Below, piece after piece: positions 35 through 5,680 of a DNA stretch of 5,680 nt (position 1 is the first letter of the stretch; each line of letters starts with the position of its first letter). The stretch is from positions 1-5,680 of IMG/VR virus record IMGVR_UViG_2740892041_000010. One strand, 5' to 3'. The notes below the pieces were generated by a model that was not told where the DNA came from, searched no databases, and saw nothing but the letters and a program-made list of their open reading frames with translations. A program made the translations under genes and the position numbers. Origin of the DNA: a virus. Taxonomy: Duplodnaviria; Heunggongvirae; Uroviricota; Caudoviricetes.

Positions 35-190
35 CACATCCCCGTCAATACGGCCCTCGCTGTACGCTTACTTTTTTGGCGCCCGCCTGGTATTAACAGA
101 AAAATCAGAGTGGTGTGTCGAACGTGGTCAGCGACAGAACATATCACCTATACCGATTTTTCGTGTCAGTTTGACGAAGTGGTGATCTGA
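35..190 (+). pseudogene. 3' remnant of a tail-tip protein M-like gene, apparently disrupted or truncated
   Basis: The frame ending at TGA 188..190 overlaps the L start (TGATG), as the M-L junction does in lambda. Its last ~39 codons (LFWRPPGINRKIRVVCRTWSATEHITYTDFSCQFDEVVI) resemble my recollection of the lambda M C-terminus only loosely (about a third of positions). There is an in-frame TAA at 32..34 and no ATG or TTG between 35 and 188, only GTG at 110 and 113. All three + frames have stops within the first 34 nt. Confidence 0.35.
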
Positions 191-888
191 TGCAGGACAT
201 ACAACAGGAAACGCTGAATGAATGCATTCGTGCGGAGCAGTCGGCCAGCGTGGTGCTCTGGGAAATCGACCTGACCGAGGTAGGCGGGGATCGCTACTTT
301 TTCTGCAATGAGCAGAACGAGAAAGGAGAGTCTGTCACCTGGCAGAGTCGGCAGTATCAGGCCTATCCCATTCAGGGGAGTGGATTTGAGATGAACGGCA
401 AAGGTGCCAGTGCAAGGCCAACGCTGAAAGTCTCTAATCTGCACGGCATGGTCACCGGGATGGCGGAAGACCTGCAGAGTCTGGTCGGCGGAACGGTGGT
501 CAGGCGTAAGGTTTACGCCCGTTTTCTGGATGCGGTGAACTTCGTCAACGGAAACAGTGACGCCGATCCGGAGCAGGAGGTGATCAGCCGCTGGCGTATT
601 GAGCAGTGCAGCGAACTGAGCGCGGTCAGTGCCTCCTTTGTACTGTCCACGCCGACGGAAACGGACGGCGCTGTTTTTCCGGGGCGCATCATGCTTGCTA
701 ATACCTGCACCTGGACCTATCGCGGTGATGAGTGCGGTTATCACGGTCCGGCGGTCGCGGATGAATATGACCAGCCGACATCCGAAATCACGAAGGATAA
801 ATGCAGCAAATGCCTGAGTGGCTGTAAGTTCCGCAATAATGTCGGCAACTTTGGCGGCTTCCTTTCCATTAACAAACTTTCGCAGTAA
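190..888 (+). CDS. L: Tail tip protein L (lambda gpL family, putative Fe-S cluster-binding tail tip component)
   Basis: Complete 232-codon ORF, ATG 190 to TAA 886..888. The translation (MQDIQQETLNEC...FGGFLSINKLSQ) matches lambda gpL over its full length as I recall it. It has a C-terminal cysteine cluster (C173, C182, C205, C208, C212) and its start overlaps the upstream stop (TGATG). Confidence 0.93.
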   Translation: MQDIQQETLNECIRAEQSASVVLWEIDLTEVGGDRYFFCNEQNEKGESVTWQSRQYQAYPIQGSGFEMNGKGASARPTLKVSNLHGMVTGMAEDLQSLVGGTVVRRKVYARFLDAVNFVNGNSDADPEQEVISRWRIEQCSELSAVSASFVLSTPTETDGAVFPGRIMLANTCTWTYRGDECGYHGPAVADEYDQPTSEITKDKCSKCLSGCKFRNNVGNFGGFLSINKLSQ

Positions 889-893
889 ATCCC

Positions 894-1637
894 ATGACAG
901 AGACAGAATCAGCGATTCTGGCGCACGCCCGGCGATGTGCGCCAGCGGAGTCGTGCGGCTTCGTGGTGAGAACGTCGGAAGGGGAAAGATATTTTCCCTG
1001 CGTGAATATCTCCGGTGAGCCGGAGGAGTATTTCCGGATGTCGCCGGAGGACTGGCTGCGGGCAGAGATGCAGGGTGAGATTGTGGCGCTGGTCCACAGC
1101 CACCCCGGTGGTATGCCCTGGCTGAGTGAGACCGACCGGCGGCTGCAGGTGCAGAGTGATTTGCCGTGGTGGCTGGTTTGCCGGGGAGCGATTCACAAGT
1201 TCCGCTGTGTGCCACATCTTTCCGGGCGGCGCTTTGAGCACGGGGTGACGGACTGTTACACGCTGTTCCGGGATGCTTACCATCTGGCGGGGATTGAGAT
1301 GCCGGATTTTCATCGCGGGGATGACTGGTGGCGTCACGGTCAGAATCTCTATCTGGATAATCTGGAGGCCACAGGGCTGTATCAGGTGCCGTTGTCAGCG
1401 GCGCAGCCGGGCGATGTGCTGCTGTGCTGTTTTGGTTCATCGGTGCCGAATCATGCCGCCATTTACTGTGGTGACAGCGAGCTGCTGCACCATATTCCTG
1501 AACAACTGAGTAAACGAGAGAGGTACACCGACAAATGGCAGCGACGCACACACTCCCTCTGGCGTCACCGGGCATGGCACGCATCTGCCTTTACGGGGAT
1601 TTACAACGATTTGGCCGCCGCATCGACCTTCGAGTGA
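894..1637 (+). CDS. K: Tail assembly protein K, two-domain peptidase (N-terminal JAB/MPN/JAMM metalloprotease-like, C-terminal NlpC/P60 cysteine peptidase-like)
   Basis: 247-codon ORF, ATG 894 to TGA 1635..1637, starting 6 nt after the L stop. JAMM signature H-S-H-x7-S-x2-D at 1095..1136 with an upstream Glu in an AESCG strand (948..950). NlpC/P60-like Cys in DCYTLF (1254..1256) and His in PNHAAIY (1452..1454). An alternative internal start at ATG 1038 would give 199 aa; the 5' boundary is uncertain. Confidence 0.9.
   Translation: MTETESAILAHARRCAPAESCGFVVRTSEGERYFPCVNISGEPEEYFRMSPEDWLRAEMQGEIVALVHSHPGGMPWLSETDRRLQVQSDLPWWLVCRGAIHKFRCVPHLSGRRFEHGVTDCYTLFRDAYHLAGIEMPDFHRGDDWWRHGQNLYLDNLEATGLYQVPLSAAQPGDVLLCCFGSSVPNHAAIYCGDSELLHHIPEQLSKRERYTDKWQRRTHSLWRHRAWHASAFTGIYNDLAAASTFE
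1022..1028 (+). promoter_or_regulatory. Strong SD-like motif upstream of the internal in-frame ATG (1038) of K
   Basis: GGAGGAG with a 9-nt spacer to ATG 1038..1040. It could drive an internal initiation product of K, or simply encode the E-E residues of the long form. Confidence 0.3.
1516..1524 (+). promoter_or_regulatory. Shine-Dalgarno-like element for I, embedded in K coding sequence
   Basis: GAGAGAGGT ending 11 nt upstream of ATG 1535. Confidence 0.4.
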
Positions 1638-2182
1638 AAACGGGGTCCGAAGCCATCCGGGCGCTGGCCATGCAGATCCCGGCGTTTCGTCAGAAACTGA
1701 GCGACGGCTGGTATCAGGTACGCATTGCCGGGCGTGATGCAGGTGAAACTGAATTATCAGCCCGTCTTAATGAACCGCTGGCAAATGGTGCCGTGATCCA
1801 CATTGTGCCGCGTCTGGCGGGAGCCAAAAGTGGCGGTCTTTTTCAGGCTGTGCTGGGGGCGGCGCTGATTGCGGTGGCATGGTGGAACCCTGCAGGTTGG
1901 TTGGGGGCTGCCGCAATTACAGGAATGTATGGTGCGGGGGCCAGTATGGTGCTCGGTGGTGTGGCGCAGATGCTGGCACCGAAAGCCAGAACTCCCCGTA
2001 CACAGACAACGGATAACGGCAAACAGAACACCTATTTCTCCTCACTGGATAACATGGTTGCCCAGGGCAATGTTCTGCCGGTTCTGTACGGTGAAATGCG
2101 CGTGGGGTCACGGGTGATTTCGCAGGAGATCAGCACGGCAGATGAAGGAGATGGTGGTCAGGTTGTGGTGATTGGTCGTTGA
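1535..2182 (+). CDS. I: Tail assembly protein I (lambda gpI family; N-terminal domain followed by Gly-Gly and a Gly/Ala-rich hydrophobic segment)
   Basis: 215-codon ORF, ATG 1535 to TGA 2180..2182, in the -1 frame relative to K and overlapping its 3' end by 103 nt, as in lambda. SD-like GAGAGAGGT at 1516..1524. The translation matches lambda gpI at both ends as I recall it, with a variable hydrophobic middle. Confidence 0.88.
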   Translation: MAATHTLPLASPGMARICLYGDLQRFGRRIDLRVKTGSEAIRALAMQIPAFRQKLSDGWYQVRIAGRDAGETELSARLNEPLANGAVIHIVPRLAGAKSGGLFQAVLGAALIAVAWWNPAGWLGAAAITGMYGAGASMVLGGVAQMLAPKARTPRTQTTDNGKQNTYFSSLDNMVAQGNVLPVLYGEMRVGSRVISQEISTADEGDGGQVVVIGR

Positions 2183-2200
2183 TGCAGAATGTTTTGTGTG

Positions 2201-2230
2201 AAACCGCCTCAGGGCGGTTTTGTCGTTTCT
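2201..2230 (+). terminator. Intrinsic-terminator-like hairpin in the I-J intergenic spacer (function unverified)
   Basis: Perfect 8-bp inverted repeat AAACCGCC (2201..2208) / GGCGGTTT (2213..2220) with a 4-nt loop TCAG, followed by the T-rich TGTCGTTTCT. It sits between the I stop (2182) and the J SD. Confidence 0.3.
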
Positions 2231-2242: not shown

Positions 2243-5200
2243 ATGGGTAAAGGCAGCAGTAAGGGGCATATCCCGCGCGAAGCGAAGGACAACCTGAAAT
2301 CATCCCAGATGCTGAGCGTGATAGACGCCATCAGTGAAGGGCCGATTGAAGGTCCGGTGGATGGATTAAAAAGCGTGCTGCTGAACAGTACGCCGGTGCT
2401 GGACAGTGAGGGGAATACCAATATCTCCGGCGTCACGGTGGTGTTCCGGGCAGGTGAGCAGGAGCAGTCACCGCCGGAGGGATTTGAATCCTCCGGTTCC
2501 GAGACGGTGCTGGGTACGGAAGTGAAATATGAAACGCCGATCACCCGGACCATCACGTCGGCAAACATCGACCGTCTGCGCTTTACCTTCGGTGTACAGG
2601 CACTGGTGGAAACCACCTCAAAGGGAGACAGGAATCCGTCGGAAGTCCGCCTGCTGGTTCAGATACAGCGTAACGGTGGCTGGGTGACGGAAAAAGACAT
2701 CACCATTAAGGGCAAAACCACCTCGCAGTATCTGGCCTCGGTGGTGGTGGGTAACCTGCCGCCGCGCCCGTTTAATATCCGGATGCGCAGGATGACGCCG
2801 GACAGCACCACAGACCAGCTGCAGAACAAAACGCTCTGGTCGTCATACACCGAGATCATCGATGTGAAACAGTGCTACCCGAACACGGCACTGGTCGGCG
2901 TACAGGTGGACTCGGAGCAGTTCGGCAGCCAGCAGGTGAGCCGTAATTATCATCTTCGCGGGCGCATTCTGCAGGTGCCGTCGAACTATAACCCGCAGAC
3001 GCGGCAATACAGCGGTATCTGGGACGGAACGTTAAAACCAGCATACAGCAACAACATGGCCTGGTGTCTGTGGGATATGCTGACCCACCCGCGCTACGGC
3101 ATGGGGAAACGTCTTGGTGCGGCGGATGTGGACAAATGGGCGCTGTATGTCATCGGCCAGTACTGCGACCAGTCAGTGCCGGACGGCTTTGGCGGCACGG
3201 AGCCGCGCATCACCTGTAATGCGTACCTGACCACACAGCGCAAGGCGTGGGATGTGCTCAGTGATTTCTGCTCGGCGATGCGCTGTATGCCGGTATGGAA
3301 CGGGCAGACGCTGACGTTCGTGCAGGACCGACAGTCGGATAAGGTGTGGACCTATAACCGCAGTAATGTGGTGATGCCGGATGATGGCGCGCCGTTCCGC
3401 TACAGCTTCAGCGCCCTGAAGGACCGCCATAATGCCGTTGAGGTGAACTGGATTGACCCGAACAACGGCTGGGAGACGGCGACAGAGCTTGTTGAAGATA
3501 CGCAGGCCATTGCCCGTTACGGTCGTAATGTCACGAAGATGGATGCCTTTGGCTGTACCAGCCGGGGGCAGGCACACCGCGCCGGGCTGTGGCTGATTAA
3601 AACGGAACTGCTGGAAACGCAGACCGTGGATTTCAGCGTGGGCGCAGAAGGGCTTCGCCATGTGCCGGGCGATGTTATTGAAATCTGCGATGATGACTAT
3701 GCCGGTATCAGCACCGGTGGTCGCGTGTTGGCGGTGAACAGCCAGACCCGGACGCTGACGCTCGACCGTGAAATCACGCTGCCATCCTCCGGTACCACGC
3801 TGATAAGCCTGGTTGACGGAAGTGGCAATCCGGTCAGCGTGGAGGTTCAGTCCGTCACCGACGGACTTAAGGTGAAAGTGAATCGGGTTCCTGACGGCGT
3901 TGCAGAATACAGTGTGTGGGGGCTGAAGTTGCCGACGTTGCGTCAGCGCCTGTTCCGCTGTGTGAGTATCCGTGAGAACGATGACGGCACGTATGCCATC
4001 ACTGCCGTGCAGCATGTACCGGAAAAAGAAGCCATCGTGGATAACGGGGCGCACTTTGACGGCGACCAGAGCGGCACGGTGAATGGTGTCACGCCGCCAG
4101 CGGTGCAGCACCTGACCGCCGAAGTCACCGCAGACAGCGGGGAATACCAGGTGCTGGCGCGCTGGGATACGCCGAAGGTGGTGAAGGGCGTGAGCTTTAT
4201 GCTTCGCCTGACCGTGGCAGCGGATGACGGCAGTGAGCGGCTGGTCAGCACGGCCCGGACGACGGAAACCACATACCGCTTCACGCAACTGGCGCCAGGG
4301 AACTACAGGCTGACAGTCCGGGCGGCAAATGCCTGGGGGCAGCAGGGCGATCCGGCATCGGTATCGTTCCGTATTGCCGCACCGGCAGCGCCGTCGCGGA
4401 TTGAGCTGACGCCGGGCTATTTTCAGATAACCGCCACGCCCCATCTTGCCGTTTATGATCCGACGGTACAGTTTGAGTTCTGGTTCTCGGAAAAGCGGAT
4501 TGCGGATATCAGGCAGGTTGAAACCACAGCCCGCTATCTTGGCACGGCGCTGTACTGGATAGCTGCCAGTATCAATATCAAACCGGGCCATGATTATTAT
4601 TTTTACATCCGCAGTGTGAACACCGTTGGCAAATCGGCATTTGTGGAGGCTGTTGGCCAGCCGAGTGATGATGCATCCGGCTATCTGGATTTTTTCAAAG
4701 GAGAGATAGGGAAAACCCATCTGGCTCAGGAGCTGTGGACGCAGATTGATAACGGTCAGCTTGCGCCTGACCTGGCTGAAATCAGGACGTCCATTACGGA
4801 TGTCAGCAATGAAATCACGCAGACCGTCAATAAGAAACTGGAAGACCAGAGTGCGGCAATTCAGCAGATACAGAAGGTTCAGGTTGATACAAATAATAAC
4901 CTGAACAGCATGTGGGCTGTGAAGCTGCAGCAGATGCAGGACGGACGCCTTTATATCGCGGGTATTGGTGCCGGTATTGAGAACACCCCTGACGGCATGC
5001 AGAGTCAGGTGCTGCTGGCGGCGGACAGGATTGCGATGGTTAATCCTGCGAATGGCAACACAAAGCCGATGTTTGTTGGTCAGGGCGATCAGATATTCAT
5101 GAACGAAGTGTTCCTGAAATATCTGACGGCTCCCACCATTACCAGCGGCGGTAATCCTCCGGCATTTTCCCTGACACCGGACGGGCGGCTGACGGCGAAA

Positions 5201-5680
5201 AATGCCGATATCAGCGGTAGCGTGAATGCGAACTCCGGGACGCTCAACAACGTCACGATTAACGAGAACTGTCGGGTTCTGGGAAAACTGTCCGCGAACC
5301 AGATTGAAGGCGATCTCGTTAAAACAGTGGGCAAAGCTTTCCCCCGGGACTCCCGTGCACCGGAGCGGTGGCCATCAGGAACCATTACCGTCAGGGTTTA
5401 TGACGATCAGCCGTTTGACCGGCAAATTGTTATTCCAGCGGTGGCTTTCAGCGGTGCCAGACATGAACGGGAGAATAGCGATACTTATTCGTCATGCCGC
5501 CTGATAGTGAAGAAAAACGGGGCTGAAATTTATAACCGAACGGCTCTGGATAATACTCTGATTTACACGGGTGTTATTGATATGCCTGCAGGCAGTGGCG
5601 TAATGACACTGGAGTTTTCTGTATCAGCATGGTGGGTAAATGGCTGGTATCCCACAGCAAGTATCAGCGATTTGCTGGTT
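2243..5680 (+). CDS. J: Central tail fibre / host specificity protein J (tail tip attachment protein), 3' end beyond window
   Basis: Open frame from ATG 2243 (GGAG at 2231..2234, 8 nt spacer) to the window end: 1146 codons with no stop. It is absent from the ORF track presumably because it is not terminated within the window. The N-terminal ~815 codons (MGKGSSKGH...YLDFFKG) are near-identical to lambda J as I recall it. The distal part diverges from lambda but keeps recognisable J motifs ([34 protein letters not shown]). Confidence 0.93.
4088..4680 (+). other. Two tandem fibronectin type III-like modules within J
   Basis: Two consecutive ~100-aa segments with an FN3-like pattern (conserved Trp/Tyr, hydrophobic alternation, ...[13 protein letters not shown]... 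and ...[14 protein letters not shown]...). Lambda-type J proteins are known to carry FN3 repeats. Boundaries are approximate. Confidence 0.45.

What the first reader, a model, noticed from the sequence alone, without database searches (positions are those of the whole stretch)
894..2182. K/I pair reads as a ubiquitin-like processing module: JAB/JAMM plus NlpC/P60 peptidase beside a protein with Gly-Gly after its N-terminal domain
Seen in sequence: K has an intact JAMM metal-binding signature H68-S-H70-x7-S78-x2-D81 (1095..1136) with an upstream Glu19 in an A-E-S-C-G strand (948..950), preceded by an ILAHARR helix-like stretch typical of bacterial JAB proteins. It then has a papain-like Cys121 in DCYTLF (1254..1256), His187 (1452..1454) and a polar H199/H200 pair (1488..1493), consistent with an NlpC/P60 triad. 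I has a ~100-residue N-terminal domain ending ...RLAGAKS-G100-G101 (1832..1837), directly followed by a Gly/Ala-rich hydrophobic segment. Established knowledge: comparative-genomic studies of prokaryotic ubiquitin-like systems predicted lambda-type I proteins to carry a ubiquitin-like beta-grasp domain and K to combine JAB and NlpC/P60 domains. To my knowledge the substrate and cleavage event are not firmly established biochemically. Inference: K may cleave I after the Gly-Gly, or process another tail-tip component, during tip assembly.
Basis: partly seen in the sequence, partly recalled or inferred. Interest (0 to 1): 0.6.

Follow-up and report, generated by a model that had tools for sequence, protein, structure and literature searches.

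The report
Lambda-type K/I tail-tip processing module
These are the K and I tail-tip assembly genes of a lambda-like E. coli phage: K is a two-domain peptidase and I carries a ubiquitin-like domain that is removed during tail-tip assembly, a module predicted in 2006 and recently reported as confirmed, so it is real but ordinary.

Summary
The window is the L-K-I-J tail-tip block of a lambdoid coliphage, about 95% identical in DNA to known phages. K (894..1637) scores as Prok-JAB plus NlpC/P60. The N-terminus of I (residues 14-97) is a confident beta-grasp domain whose closest solved folds are MoaD, CysO, Urm1, ThiS and ubiquitin.

[quoted passage not shown] Cryo-EM and mass spectrometry of lambda and F-pyocin find only the C-terminal plug of I in mature particles.

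One refinement: Gly100-Gly101 is not the conserved feature (G100 in 33 of 77 homologs, absent in F-pyocin PA0640). Gly96 (74/77), followed by Ala/Ser, aligns with the terminal Gly-Gly of MoaD-type proteins and ubiquitin. The scissile bond is more likely at 96-98, but this is untested.

The role of the invariant NlpC/P60 triad remains open. Verdict: already known, low interest.

The parts
894..1637 (+). Gene K, tail tip assembly protein, 247 aa (JAB + NlpC/P60)
   Evidence: ORF; Pfam; 98% identical cluster P0126 named phage tail protein / C40 peptidase; synteny L-K-I-J as in lambda
903..1187 (+). JAB/MPN+ metallopeptidase domain, K residues 4-98
   Evidence: PF14464, E 2.1e-14. The AF2 model matches P. 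furiosus JAMM1 (5ld9; 5lda with SAMP2), Rpn11, CSN5 and AMSH. NCBIfam desampylase scores below its cut-off.
948..950 (+). JAMM catalytic Glu19 (A-E-S-C-G)
   Evidence: Coordinates; invariant in 16 K proteins of 27-52% identity
1095..1136 (+). JAMM motif H68-S-H70-x7-S78-x2-D81
   Evidence: H68, S69, H70, S78 and D81 are all invariant; also intact in the F-pyocin K homolog
1224..1565 (+). NlpC/P60 (C40) papain-like peptidase domain, K residues 111-224
   Evidence: PF00877, E 5.4e-12. The model matches MepS, a C. difficile autolysin and other NlpC/P60 hydrolases.
1254..1256 (+). NlpC/P60 nucleophile Cys121 (D-C-Y)
   Evidence: D120 and C121 invariant
1452..1454 (+). NlpC/P60 His187
   Evidence: invariant
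1488..1493 (+). His199/His200; H199 is the likely third triad residue, 12 residues after H187
   Evidence: both invariant
1535..1637 (+). 103-nt K/I overlap (I is in the +2 frame relative to K), coding in both frames
   Evidence: The K C-terminal tail motif (FTGIYNDL) is kept in Mannheimia and Salmonella S137 K; in the Mannheimia phage K and I do not overlap at all, so there the tail is conserved for its own sake. The beta-1 strand of the I domain starts at 1574.
1535..2182 (+). Gene I, tail tip assembly / plug protein, 215 aa from ATG 1535 (202 aa from ATG 1574)
   Evidence: ORF; E 9e-109 to lambda gpI chains 8iyk/8iyl/8k35/8xcg; PF06805
1574..1825 (+). Ubiquitin-like beta-grasp domain of I, residues 14-97
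   Evidence: PF06805 on residues 14-97. AF2 pLDDT is 92-98 with a beta-beta-alpha-beta-beta-alpha-beta layout. Foldseek top hits are MoaD (TM-score 0.75 normalised to MoaD length), CysO, Urm1, ThiS and ubiquitin.
1811..1837 (+). Exposed tail/linker R93-L-A-G96-A97-K-S-G100-G101, the probable cleavage region
   Evidence: Low-confidence coil between the last strand (V87-P92) and the first hydrophobic helix. In homologs: P92 76/77, G96 74/77, position 97 Ala 59/Ser 10/Gly 3 of 77, G101 59/77, G100 33/77. G96-A97 aligns with the GG of the MoaD-related protein 1v8c.
1832..1975 (+). Gly/Ala-rich hydrophobic helical hairpin, I residues 100-147
   Evidence: Hydropathy; predicted helices 100-117 and 125-147. 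The lambda papers describe strongly predicted transmembrane segments (PMC12617516) and note that the start of the resolved part of gpI (lambda residues 137-152) is highly hydrophobic (PMC10721106).
1913..2179 (+). C-terminal plug domain of I, residues about 127-215 (lambda gpI 135-223), the part retained in the virion
   Evidence: Matches chain 9e7m_Ia and the residues modelled in lambda tail tips (PMC10721106; PMC12617516)

Best explanation
K and I form the lambda-type tail-tip maturation module.

I is made as a precursor with three parts: an N-terminal ubiquitin-like beta-grasp domain (residues 14-97), a Gly/Ala-rich hydrophobic helical hairpin (about 100-147) and a C-terminal plug domain (about 127-215). 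The precursor docks into the J/L tip complex.

K is a non-structural enzyme. It recognises the beta-grasp domain with its JAB/MPN+ zinc metallopeptidase domain (E19, H68, H70, S78, D81) and cuts in the short exposed tail R93-G101. The most likely position is at or just after Gly96-Ala97, which corresponds to the ubiquitin/MoaD C-terminal Gly-Gly.

The ubiquitin-like domain and K then leave. The C-terminal part of I stays as the trimeric plug that holds the C-terminus of the tape measure protein. Cleavage therefore acts as an assembly checkpoint.

What is shown here: the domain identities, the intact and invariant catalytic residues, the beta-grasp fold and the conservation pattern of the tail. 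What is taken from the literature: that cleavage happens, that it depends on K, and that only the C-terminal part of I is in particles. What is inferred: that the JAB domain rather than the NlpC/P60 domain cuts, the exact bond, and the checkpoint logic.
For: - **Pfam.** K = Prok-JAB + NLPC_P60; I = Lambda_tail_I.
- **Residues.** All named residues verified.
- **Architecture.** 10 of 10 diverse phage K proteins keep both domains.
- **Invariant residues.** E19, H68, S69, H70, S78, D81 and D120, C121, H187, H199, H200 are invariant in 16 K proteins of 27-52% identity.
- **I fold.** The I model has pLDDT 92-98 for residues 14-93. Foldseek places it with MoaD, CysO, Urm1, ThiS and ubiquitin.
- **K fold.** The N-half of the K model matches PfJAMM1, including its complex with the ubiquitin-like SAMP2, and Rpn11/CSN5/AMSH. 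NCBIfam gives a sub-threshold desampylase match.
- **Gene fusions.** phrog_35166 joins JAB to I, and phrog_28576 joins K to I.
- **Particles.** Lambda virions show only gpI 134/135-223 and no gpK. The single gpI peptide in the virion mass spectrometry covers 9.87% of the protein. That equals the 22-residue C-terminal tryptic peptide and no other tryptic peptide.
- **F-pyocin.** The N-terminus of PA0640 is absent from mature particles but present in stalled tips, and the K homolog PA0639 is required. The K homolog in a P. paraeruginosa F-pyocin-type locus, whose I homolog matches the PA0640 fragment at 100%, has an intact JAMM motif and NlpC/P60 triad.
- **Prior statements.** The prediction is in PMC1779556. 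[quoted passage not shown]
Against: - No biochemical data were generated or readable here. The only direct statement for lambda is a meeting summary, and no full paper was found.
- The F-pyocin preprint says the protease for PA0640 is not identified, and that recombinant PA0640 expressed alone in E. coli loses its N-terminus to unknown host proteases. Removal could therefore be non-specific.
- The model gives no role to the invariant NlpC/P60 triad.
- The scissile bond is unknown. The tail of the I model is low confidence (block pLDDT 61).
- The sequence link to MoaD is weak (E 0.094).
Confidence: 0.8

Rival explanations
1. The papain-like NlpC/P60 domain of K (C121/H187/H199), not the JAB domain, removes the ubiquitin-like domain of I, as papain-fold deubiquitinases do. 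In this reading JAB only binds the beta-grasp domain or acts on something else.
For: The triad and its neighbours D120 and H200 are invariant in 16 diverse K proteins. [quoted passage not shown]
Against: The JAMM residues are equally invariant. JAB is the domain repeatedly linked to ThiS/MoaD-like proteins across prokaryotes. A phage family fuses JAB, not NlpC/P60, directly to I (phrog_35166). The closest solved folds of the C-terminal half are peptidoglycan hydrolases such as MepS and autolysins, not deubiquitinases. The meeting summary speaks of gpK's 'deubiquitinating domain'.
Confidence: 0.1
2. The NlpC/P60 half of K is a peptidoglycan peptidase used for cell-wall penetration or another wall-related step, independent of I. 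On this reading the K/I adjacency reflects tail-gene order only for that domain.
For: RcGTA g14, described in that paper as a 150-residue tail peptidoglycan peptidase, degrades R. capsulatus peptidoglycan and is needed for tailed particles. That g14 is an NlpC/P60-only counterpart of K is my own knowledge, not tested here. The best structural matches are MepS and autolysins. There is a sub-threshold match to TIGR02219, 'putative phage cell wall peptidase'.
Against: gpK is not detected in lambda virions by mass spectrometry or cryo-EM. Lambda virions are reported to carry no peptidoglycan hydrolase. An enzyme absent from the particle cannot act at entry. This rival does not explain the JAB domain or the ubiquitin-like domain, so at most it complements the main explanation.
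Confidence: 0.1
3. There is no specific processing. The ubiquitin-like domain of I is kept on a flexible linker and is simply invisible to cryo-EM, or it is lost through non-specific proteolysis. K acts only as a chaperone.
For: Cryo-EM cannot tell a disordered region from an absent one. PA0640 expressed alone in E. coli loses its N-terminus to host proteases.
Against: N-terminal peptides of PA0640 are detected in stalled tips but not in mature F-pyocin. The only lambda gpI peptide seen in virions is C-terminal, although several N-terminal tryptic peptides of 9, 10 and 26 residues would be expected to be detectable. Two complete catalytic sets are invariant over wide divergence. The meeting summary reports K-dependent cleavage.
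Confidence: 0.05
4. The released ubiquitin-like domain, with its exposed C-terminal Gly, is then conjugated to a target or thiocarboxylated, as ubiquitin, SAMP, ThiS and MoaD are.
For: The fold is closest to sulfur carriers and modifiers. A near-invariant Gly sits at the equivalent C-terminal position. Iyer et al. raised the possibility.
Against: No E1-like or E2-like gene lies in the window or in any of the 16 related phage loci inspected, which hold only tape measure, M, L, K, I, J and small unannotated ORFs. The residue after G96 is Ala, Ser, Arg or Asn rather than Gly.
Confidence: 0.02

Closest known systems
Bacteriophage lambda gpK / gpI (tail tip assembly proteins K and I)
   Same: Same gene order L-K-I-J and the same K/I overlap. 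I matches lambda gpI over its full length with E 9e-109. The K region is about 95-98% identical in DNA to lambda-group phages. The domains and motifs are the same. This is a member of the same family.
   Different: I here is 215 aa against 223 aa, through indels in the Gly/Ala-rich hydrophobic segment. There are minor substitutions. The lambda reference record annotates K as only 199 aa because of a missing base.
Prokaryotic JAB + ThiS/MoaD-like ubiquitin-like pairs (Iyer, Burroughs and Aravind 2006). Examples recalled from my own knowledge: Mec+/CysO, QbsD/QbsE, HvJAMM1/SAMP, PfJAMM1/SAMP2.
   Same: A JAMM metallopeptidase is encoded next to a beta-grasp protein with a conserved C-terminal Gly. 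The predicted action is a cut right after the ubiquitin-like domain to free it. CysO (3dwg_C) and PfJAMM1 with SAMP2 (5lda) are among the top structural matches.
   Different: Here the ubiquitin-like domain is the N-terminal part of a structural precursor, and it is the discarded product. There is no E1/E2 or sulfur-transfer partner. The Gly-Gly is replaced by Gly-Ala/Ser. The peptidase carries an additional NlpC/P60 domain.
Pseudomonas aeruginosa F-pyocin PA0639 / PA0640
   Same: These are homologs of K and I. The N-terminus of PA0640 is missing from mature particles and present in stalled tips, and the PA0639 deletion makes tip-less tubes. The K homolog in the P. paraeruginosa F-pyocin-type locus has the same JAMM motif and NlpC/P60 triad.
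   Different: It is a tailocin, not a phage. The tail of PA0640 reads G-S-K-Q-S-G, with no Gly-Gly. The genes do not overlap in the lambda manner.
RcGTA g14 (tail peptidoglycan peptidase)
   Same: It is required for tail formation and shown to degrade peptidoglycan. That it is an NlpC/P60 relative of the C-terminal half of K, at the equivalent position in a tail-tip gene block, is from my own knowledge.
   Different: It is 150 residues long, too short to hold a JAB domain as well. To my knowledge it has no partner with a ubiquitin-like domain. It is possibly present inside the particle, whereas gpK is not detected in lambda virions.
Phage T5 pb3 plug domain
   Same: A trimeric plug closes the tail tip lumen at the position of the gpI tripod and holds the tape measure C-terminus.
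   Different: The plug is an insertion domain of the hub protein itself. No ubiquitin-like pro-domain or K-like peptidase is involved.

Membership tests
JAB/JAMM (MPN+) metallopeptidase, Pfam PF14464 Prok-JAB | Profile match above the curated threshold | tested here: met
   53.8 bits against a cut-off of 25, E 2.1e-14, K residues 4-98
JAB/JAMM (MPN+) metallopeptidase, Pfam PF14464 Prok-JAB | Complete JAMM motif: upstream Glu plus H-x-H-x7-S-x2-D | tested here: met
   E19, H68, H70, S78 and D81 present and invariant in 16 diverse K proteins
JAB/JAMM (MPN+) metallopeptidase, Pfam PF14464 Prok-JAB | MPN fold | tested here: met
   The AF2 model matches PfJAMM1 5ld9 (E 9e-6, TM-score 0.61 normalised to target length), DSY2949, Rpn11, CSN5 and AMSH
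JAB/JAMM (MPN+) metallopeptidase, Pfam PF14464 Prok-JAB | Zinc-dependent cleavage after the C-terminus of a ubiquitin-like domain | not testable with these tools
   Reported for lambda gpK only in a meeting summary (PMC12908700)
NlpC/P60 (MEROPS C40) papain-like peptidase, Pfam PF00877 | Profile match above the curated threshold | tested here: met
   46.1 bits against a cut-off of 23, E 5.4e-12, K residues 111-224
NlpC/P60 (MEROPS C40) papain-like peptidase, Pfam PF00877 | Cys-His-polar catalytic triad | tested here: met
   C121, H187 and H199 present and invariant. The 12-residue His-to-third-residue spacing matches MepS-type enzymes (my own knowledge).
NlpC/P60 (MEROPS C40) papain-like peptidase, Pfam PF00877 | Papain-like NlpC/P60 fold | tested here: met
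   Foldseek matches to MepS (8xup), C. difficile autolysin (9ubf) and 7v6t/7v6u
NlpC/P60 (MEROPS C40) papain-like peptidase, Pfam PF00877 | Known substrate (peptidoglycan stem peptide or a protein) | not testable with these tools
   Unknown for K. RcGTA g14 degrades peptidoglycan.
Ubiquitin-like beta-grasp, ThiS/MoaD type (Pfam PF06805 Lambda_tail_I) | Profile match above the curated threshold | tested here: met
   83.3 bits against a cut-off of 23.8, I residues 14-97
Ubiquitin-like beta-grasp, ThiS/MoaD type (Pfam PF06805 Lambda_tail_I) | Beta-grasp fold | tested here: met
   pLDDT 92-98. Top PDB matches are MoaD 1fm0_D (TM-score 0.75 normalised to MoaD length, rmsd 2.1), CysO, the MoaD-related protein 1v8c, Urm1, ThiS, ubiquitin, SUMO and NEDD8.
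Ubiquitin-like beta-grasp, ThiS/MoaD type (Pfam PF06805 Lambda_tail_I) | [quoted passage not shown] | tested here: inconclusive
   A single near-invariant Gly96 (74/77) followed by Ala, Ser or Gly sits at the position of the GG of 1v8c. The literal Gly100-Gly101 lies four residues further on, and G100 is present in only 33 of 77 homologs.
Ubiquitin-like conjugation or sulfur-carrier system | E1-like adenylating enzyme (and E2 or sulfurtransferase) encoded with the ubiquitin-like protein | tested here: not met
   The window holds only L, K, I and J. The 16 related phage loci hold only tail genes and small unannotated ORFs. This is a processing module, not a conjugation system.
Lambda gpK/gpI tail-tip assembly module | Synteny L-K-I-J with close sequence similarity to lambda | tested here: met
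Lambda gpK/gpI tail-tip assembly module | C-terminal plug domain of I homologous to the part resolved in the virion tip | tested here: met
   Query residues 129-214 match chain 9e7m_Ia with E 4e-46. Lambda residues 135-223 are modelled.
Lambda gpK/gpI tail-tip assembly module | K-dependent removal of the ubiquitin-like domain of I during assembly | not testable with these tools
   Literature only

The most novel reading that the evidence does not exclude
K is a dual-protease maturation factor. The JAB domain removes the ubiquitin-like domain of I. The equally invariant NlpC/P60 triad carries out a second, so far unassigned proteolytic event in tail maturation. [quoted passage not shown]
Probability: 0.12. 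Interest if true: 0.6.

Novelty: already known. Interest (0 to 1): 0.2.

Why it matters
The K/I pair is a clear prokaryotic/viral case of a JAB peptidase working on a ubiquitin-like domain. Here the domain serves as a removable pro-domain that gates stepwise assembly of a siphophage or tailocin tail tip.

This has been predicted since 2006 and is now reported as shown, so finding it again in a lambdoid window adds nothing new in kind.

- The conserved determinant is P-x-x-x-G-[A/S] (Gly96), not the Gly-Gly, which should guide mutagenesis and mass-spectrometry searches.
- Common database annotations hide the module. These are the 199-aa lambda K, caused by a one-base gap in the reference, and the 182- to 190-aa versions of I.
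- The invariant NlpC/P60 triad still has no assigned substrate.

Tried and rejected
- **Related loci with alignments.** The search for related loci with alignments of diverse I proteins (A1 with 58 sequences, A2 with 14) failed because no stretch was conserved enough. With the single protein it returned only relatives of 92-98% identity. I used tblastn against annotated phages with spread rows instead.
- **K structure prediction.** A shallower alignment, A5, was used, so the K model is only moderate (mean pLDDT 76).
- **Programmed frameshift from K into I.** I considered a -1 frameshift within the 103-nt overlap, prompted by K-I fused database proteins (P0135, P0156, P0217, P0236). By eye I found no X-XXY-YYZ slippery heptamer in the K frame of the overlap. 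The fused entries are singletons or near-singletons and are most simply indel artefacts or pseudogenes. This was not pursued.
- **Literal Gly-Gly as the cleavage signal.** Rejected as the best candidate on conservation, the F-pyocin sequence and the alignment to MoaD. It is not excluded.
- **Terminator scan.** The consensus scan found nothing between I and J, although a 9-bp hairpin is there.
- **Literature.** Three searches for a full paper on gpK-gpI cleavage found only the meeting summary.
- **K-I complex prediction.** Not attempted. The tool returns no coordinates or contacts, so the position of the tail relative to either active site could not be read out.
Full report
**What the window is**

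The 5680-base window carries four same-strand genes: L (190..888), K (894..1637, 247 aa), I (1535..2182, 215 aa) and the first 1146 codons of J (from 2243). Pfam names them:
- Phage_tail_L
- Prok-JAB + NLPC_P60
- Lambda_tail_I
- the full set of gpJ domains

The DNA is about 95% identical to E. coli lambdoid phages whose records label these genes tail tip assembly proteins L, K, I and host specificity protein J. I matches the lambda gpI chains of PDB entries 8iyk, 8iyl, 8k35 and 8xcg with E 9e-109. This is therefore the lambda tail-tip block.

**Checking the observation**

| Protein | Residue | Window coordinates |
|---|---|---|
| K | E19 | 948..950 |
| K | H68-S-H70-x7-S78-x2-D81 | 1095..1136 |
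| K | C121 | 1254..1256 |
| K | H187 | 1452..1454 |
| K | H199/H200 | 1488..1493 |
| I | G100/G101 | 1832..1837 |

The domain calls are well above the curated thresholds. Prok-JAB scores 53.8 bits against 25. NLPC_P60 scores 46.1 against 23. Lambda_tail_I scores 83.3 against 23.8.

Two details need adjusting.
- The ubiquitin-like domain is residues 14-97. 47 of 77 diverse full-length homologs begin at the position of Met14, so the first 13 codons are a lambda-group extension of uncertain status.
- A Gly-Gly dipeptide carries no statistical weight here. The protein is 12.6% glycine, with 3 GG observed against 3.4 expected.

**K in comparison**

I took 16 phage loci spread across the tblastn ranking of I. 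Their hosts include Ralstonia, Mannheimia, Pseudomonas, Pectobacterium, Edwardsiella, Moraxella, Acinetobacter and Vibrio, and the set includes HK97-like, T1-like, Dhillonvirus and other coliphages.
- All ten K proteins scanned have both Prok-JAB and NLPC_P60.
- In an alignment of 16 K proteins at 27-52% identity to the window's K, the invariant columns include the whole JAMM set (E19, H68, S69, H70, S78, D81). They also include the whole NlpC/P60 set (D120, C121, H187, H199, H200).

Both active sites are therefore under selection.

An AlphaFold2 model of K (mean pLDDT 76) gives two kinds of Foldseek hit.
- N-terminal half: Pyrococcus JAMM1 (also in complex with the ubiquitin-like SAMP2), DSY2949, Rpn11, CSN5, AMSH.
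- C-terminal half: MepS, a C. difficile autolysin and other NlpC/P60 cell-wall hydrolases.

NCBIfam gives sub-threshold matches to 'desampylase' and to 'putative phage cell wall peptidase, NlpC/P60'.

**I in comparison**

The AlphaFold2 model of I, built with 58 sequences, has three regions.

| Region | Residues | Model |
|---|---|---|
| Beta-grasp domain | 14-93 | pLDDT 92-98, beta-beta-alpha-beta-beta-alpha-beta layout, last strand V87-P92 |
| Coil | R93-S99 | low confidence |
| Hydrophobic helices | 100-117 and 125-147 | two helices |
| C-terminus | from about 148 | poorly predicted as a monomer |

Foldseek against the PDB puts the N-domain with MoaD (1fm0_D, TM-score 0.75 normalised to MoaD length, rmsd 2.1 Å). 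Next come CysO (3dwg_C), a Thermus MoaD-related protein, Urm1 and ThiS, then ubiquitin, SUMO and NEDD8.

**Which glycine**

In 77 full-length homologs drawn from representatives at 50% identity, the conserved tail is P92-x-x-x-G96-[A/S/G]97.

| Position | Conservation in 77 homologs |
|---|---|
| P92 | 76 |
| G96 | 74 |
| 97 | Ala 59, Ser 10, Gly 3 |
| G100 | 33 (20 sequences have a gap) |
| G101 | 59 |
| G108 | 76 |

Four further observations bear on this.
- Among the 16 I proteins that sit beside a confirmed JAB+NlpC/P60 K, G96 is invariant. Position 100 is G, S, A, E, Q or N.
- F-pyocin PA0640 reads ...IVPLVIGSKQSGLFQ, with no Gly-Gly. Its N-terminal region is nevertheless missing from mature particles.
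- A profile of the I N-domain aligns 'IVPvvaGAk' with 'LFPPVAGGG' of the MoaD-related protein 1v8c. That places G96-A97 on the carrier's Gly-Gly. The match is weak (E 0.094) but agrees with the fold search.
- By eye, and from my own knowledge of the ubiquitin sequence, 'IHIVPRLAGA' (88-97) lines up with ubiquitin 'LHLVLRLRGG' (67-76).

In the model, G100-G101 begin the first hydrophobic helix rather than ending the tail.

I conclude that G96(-A97) is the homolog of the ubiquitin-like C-terminal diglycine and the more likely cleavage position. This is an inference. Nothing accessible states the real bond.

**What is already known**

*The prediction.* Iyer, Burroughs and Aravind (2006, PMC1779556) found the ubiquitin-like domain in lambda/T1 'TAPI' proteins. 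They noted its conserved C-terminal glycine and a C-terminal domain joined by a glycine-rich linker. They also found the flanking 'TAPK' with JAB and NlpC/P60 domains.

*Lambda particles.* Cryo-EM of lambda resolves only gpI 135-223 (or 134-222), as a trimeric plug holding the C-terminus of gpH. gpK is absent by mass spectrometry and cryo-EM (PMC10721106, PMC12617516). In the virion mass spectrometry of PMC10721106, gpI gave one peptide with 9.87% coverage. That equals 22 residues, the length of the C-terminal tryptic peptide 202-223 and of no other tryptic peptide. This is weak support for loss of the N-terminus.

*F-pyocin.* The preprint 10.64898/2026.02.24.707460 shows that N-terminal peptides of PA0640 are present in stalled tips and absent from mature particles. 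It also shows that deletion of PA0639, the K homolog, gives tip-less tubes, and it leaves the protease unidentified. I fetched a P. paraeruginosa locus whose I homolog matches the PA0640 fragment at 100%. Its K homolog has an intact JAMM motif and NlpC/P60 triad.

*Lambda cleavage.* A report of the October 2025 bacteriophage conference (PMC12908700) summarises a talk by A. Davidson. [quoted passage not shown] I found no full paper.

**Mechanism I commit to**

I is a precursor whose ubiquitin-like pro-domain is removed by K once I has docked in the J/L tip. The JAB domain is the likely scissor, acting in the R93-G101 tail and probably at G96-A97/K98. K and the freed domain are not incorporated. 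The remainder of I is the plug that holds the tape measure C-terminus. Gene-fusion families support the JAB-I link (phrog_35166 joins JAB to I; phrog_28576 joins K to I).

| Claim | Confidence |
|---|---|
| The module as a whole | about 0.8 |
| JAB is the acting domain | about 0.7 |
| The site is at residues 96-98 | about 0.5 |

**What stays unexplained**

The NlpC/P60 triad is as invariant as the JAMM motif, but the model gives it no job.
- It may be the real or a second protease for I (rival 1).
- It may be a peptidoglycan peptidase, as reported for RcGTA g14 (PMC7296036). This fits poorly with the absence of gpK from virions.
- It may perform another maturation cleavage, such as gpH to gpH*. 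The protease and site for that step are explicitly unknown.

The last option is the most novel reading I cannot exclude. I give it about 0.12.

**Verdict**

The finding is real, correctly located and correctly interpreted. It is a re-discovery of a published prediction that is now reported as experimentally confirmed, in a phage 95% identical to known ones.

- Novelty: already known.
- Interest: 0.2.

Noticed in passing
window about 1028; L001 1267/1268 (NC_001416 about 14,266): The lambda reference sequence (J02459/NC_001416) lacks one base (GGAGGC-TATTTCC) relative to this window and to ON470612. This puts a stop upstream of the annotated K start, so K is annotated as 199 aa and loses the first 48 residues of the JAB domain, including Glu19. 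Other lambda-group records (lambda PV340536, LC730321, KT232076; DE3 EU078592; lambda imm21/imm434 hybrids) span 802 rather than 801 bases over this region. PV340536 annotates K as 247 aa. Goulet et al. 2020 (PMC7291167) analysed the 199-aa form and saw only 'a peptidase domain'. This is probably an error in the original lambda sequence.
   Followed up: partly
window 1535, 1574, 1634: Database records use three different starts for I. ATG 1535 gives 215 aa (223 aa in lambda), ATG 1574 gives 200-202 aa, and GTG 1634 gives 182-190 aa (ON470612, PV340536). The GTG start removes the first strand and helix of the beta-grasp domain. 47 of 77 distant homologs start at the position of Met14 (1574). 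ATG 1535 has the better Shine-Dalgarno-like sequence (GAGAGG, 11 nt upstream).
   Followed up: partly
window 1535..1637: K and I overlap by 103 nt in different frames (I is +2 relative to K). The K C-terminal tail (…FTGIYNDLAAASTFE) is conserved in Mannheimia and Salmonella S137 K proteins. In the Mannheimia phage K and I do not overlap, so both frames appear to be truly coding. In most other phages the overlap is only 0-20 nt.
   Followed up: partly
proteins P0135, P0156, P0217, P0236; phrog_28576 and phrog_35166: Single ORFs fusing K, or only its JAB domain, to I exist in databases, and a J-type family (phrog_31) overlaps I residues 82-201. Some may be indel artefacts within the overlap, others genuine fusions as noted by Iyer et al. 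2006. I saw no slippery heptamer for a programmed -1 shift in the overlap.
   Followed up: partly
window 2200..2221: A perfect 9-bp GC-rich hairpin (GAAACCGCC-UCAG-GGCGGUUUU) followed by GUCGUUUCU lies in the 60-nt I-J spacer. Folding the spacer gives z = -2.5 against shuffles. The consensus terminator scan did not report it. It could be a weak intra-operon terminator or an RNA stability element.
   Followed up: partly
PMC10721106, S2 Table (lambda virion mass spectrometry): gpI was identified from a single peptide with 9.87% coverage. That equals 22 of 223 residues and fits only the C-terminal tryptic peptide 202-223. No N-terminal (ubiquitin-like domain) peptide was reported, although several tryptic peptides of suitable size exist there.
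   Followed up: yes
window about 5272..5680: Many lambda-group phages match the window only up to about 5272-5342, while a few (vB_EcoS-640R1, PhiR55_1) match to the end. This indicates the usual mosaic exchange of the C-terminal receptor-binding part of J.
   Followed up: no
window 166..1584 (-) and 3173..4720 (-): Long antisense ORFs of 472 and 515 aa run opposite L/K and J. Their translations are low-complexity and rich in Arg, Pro and Ala, and they look like by-products of the codon bias of the sense genes. No evidence of coding was sought.
   Followed up: no
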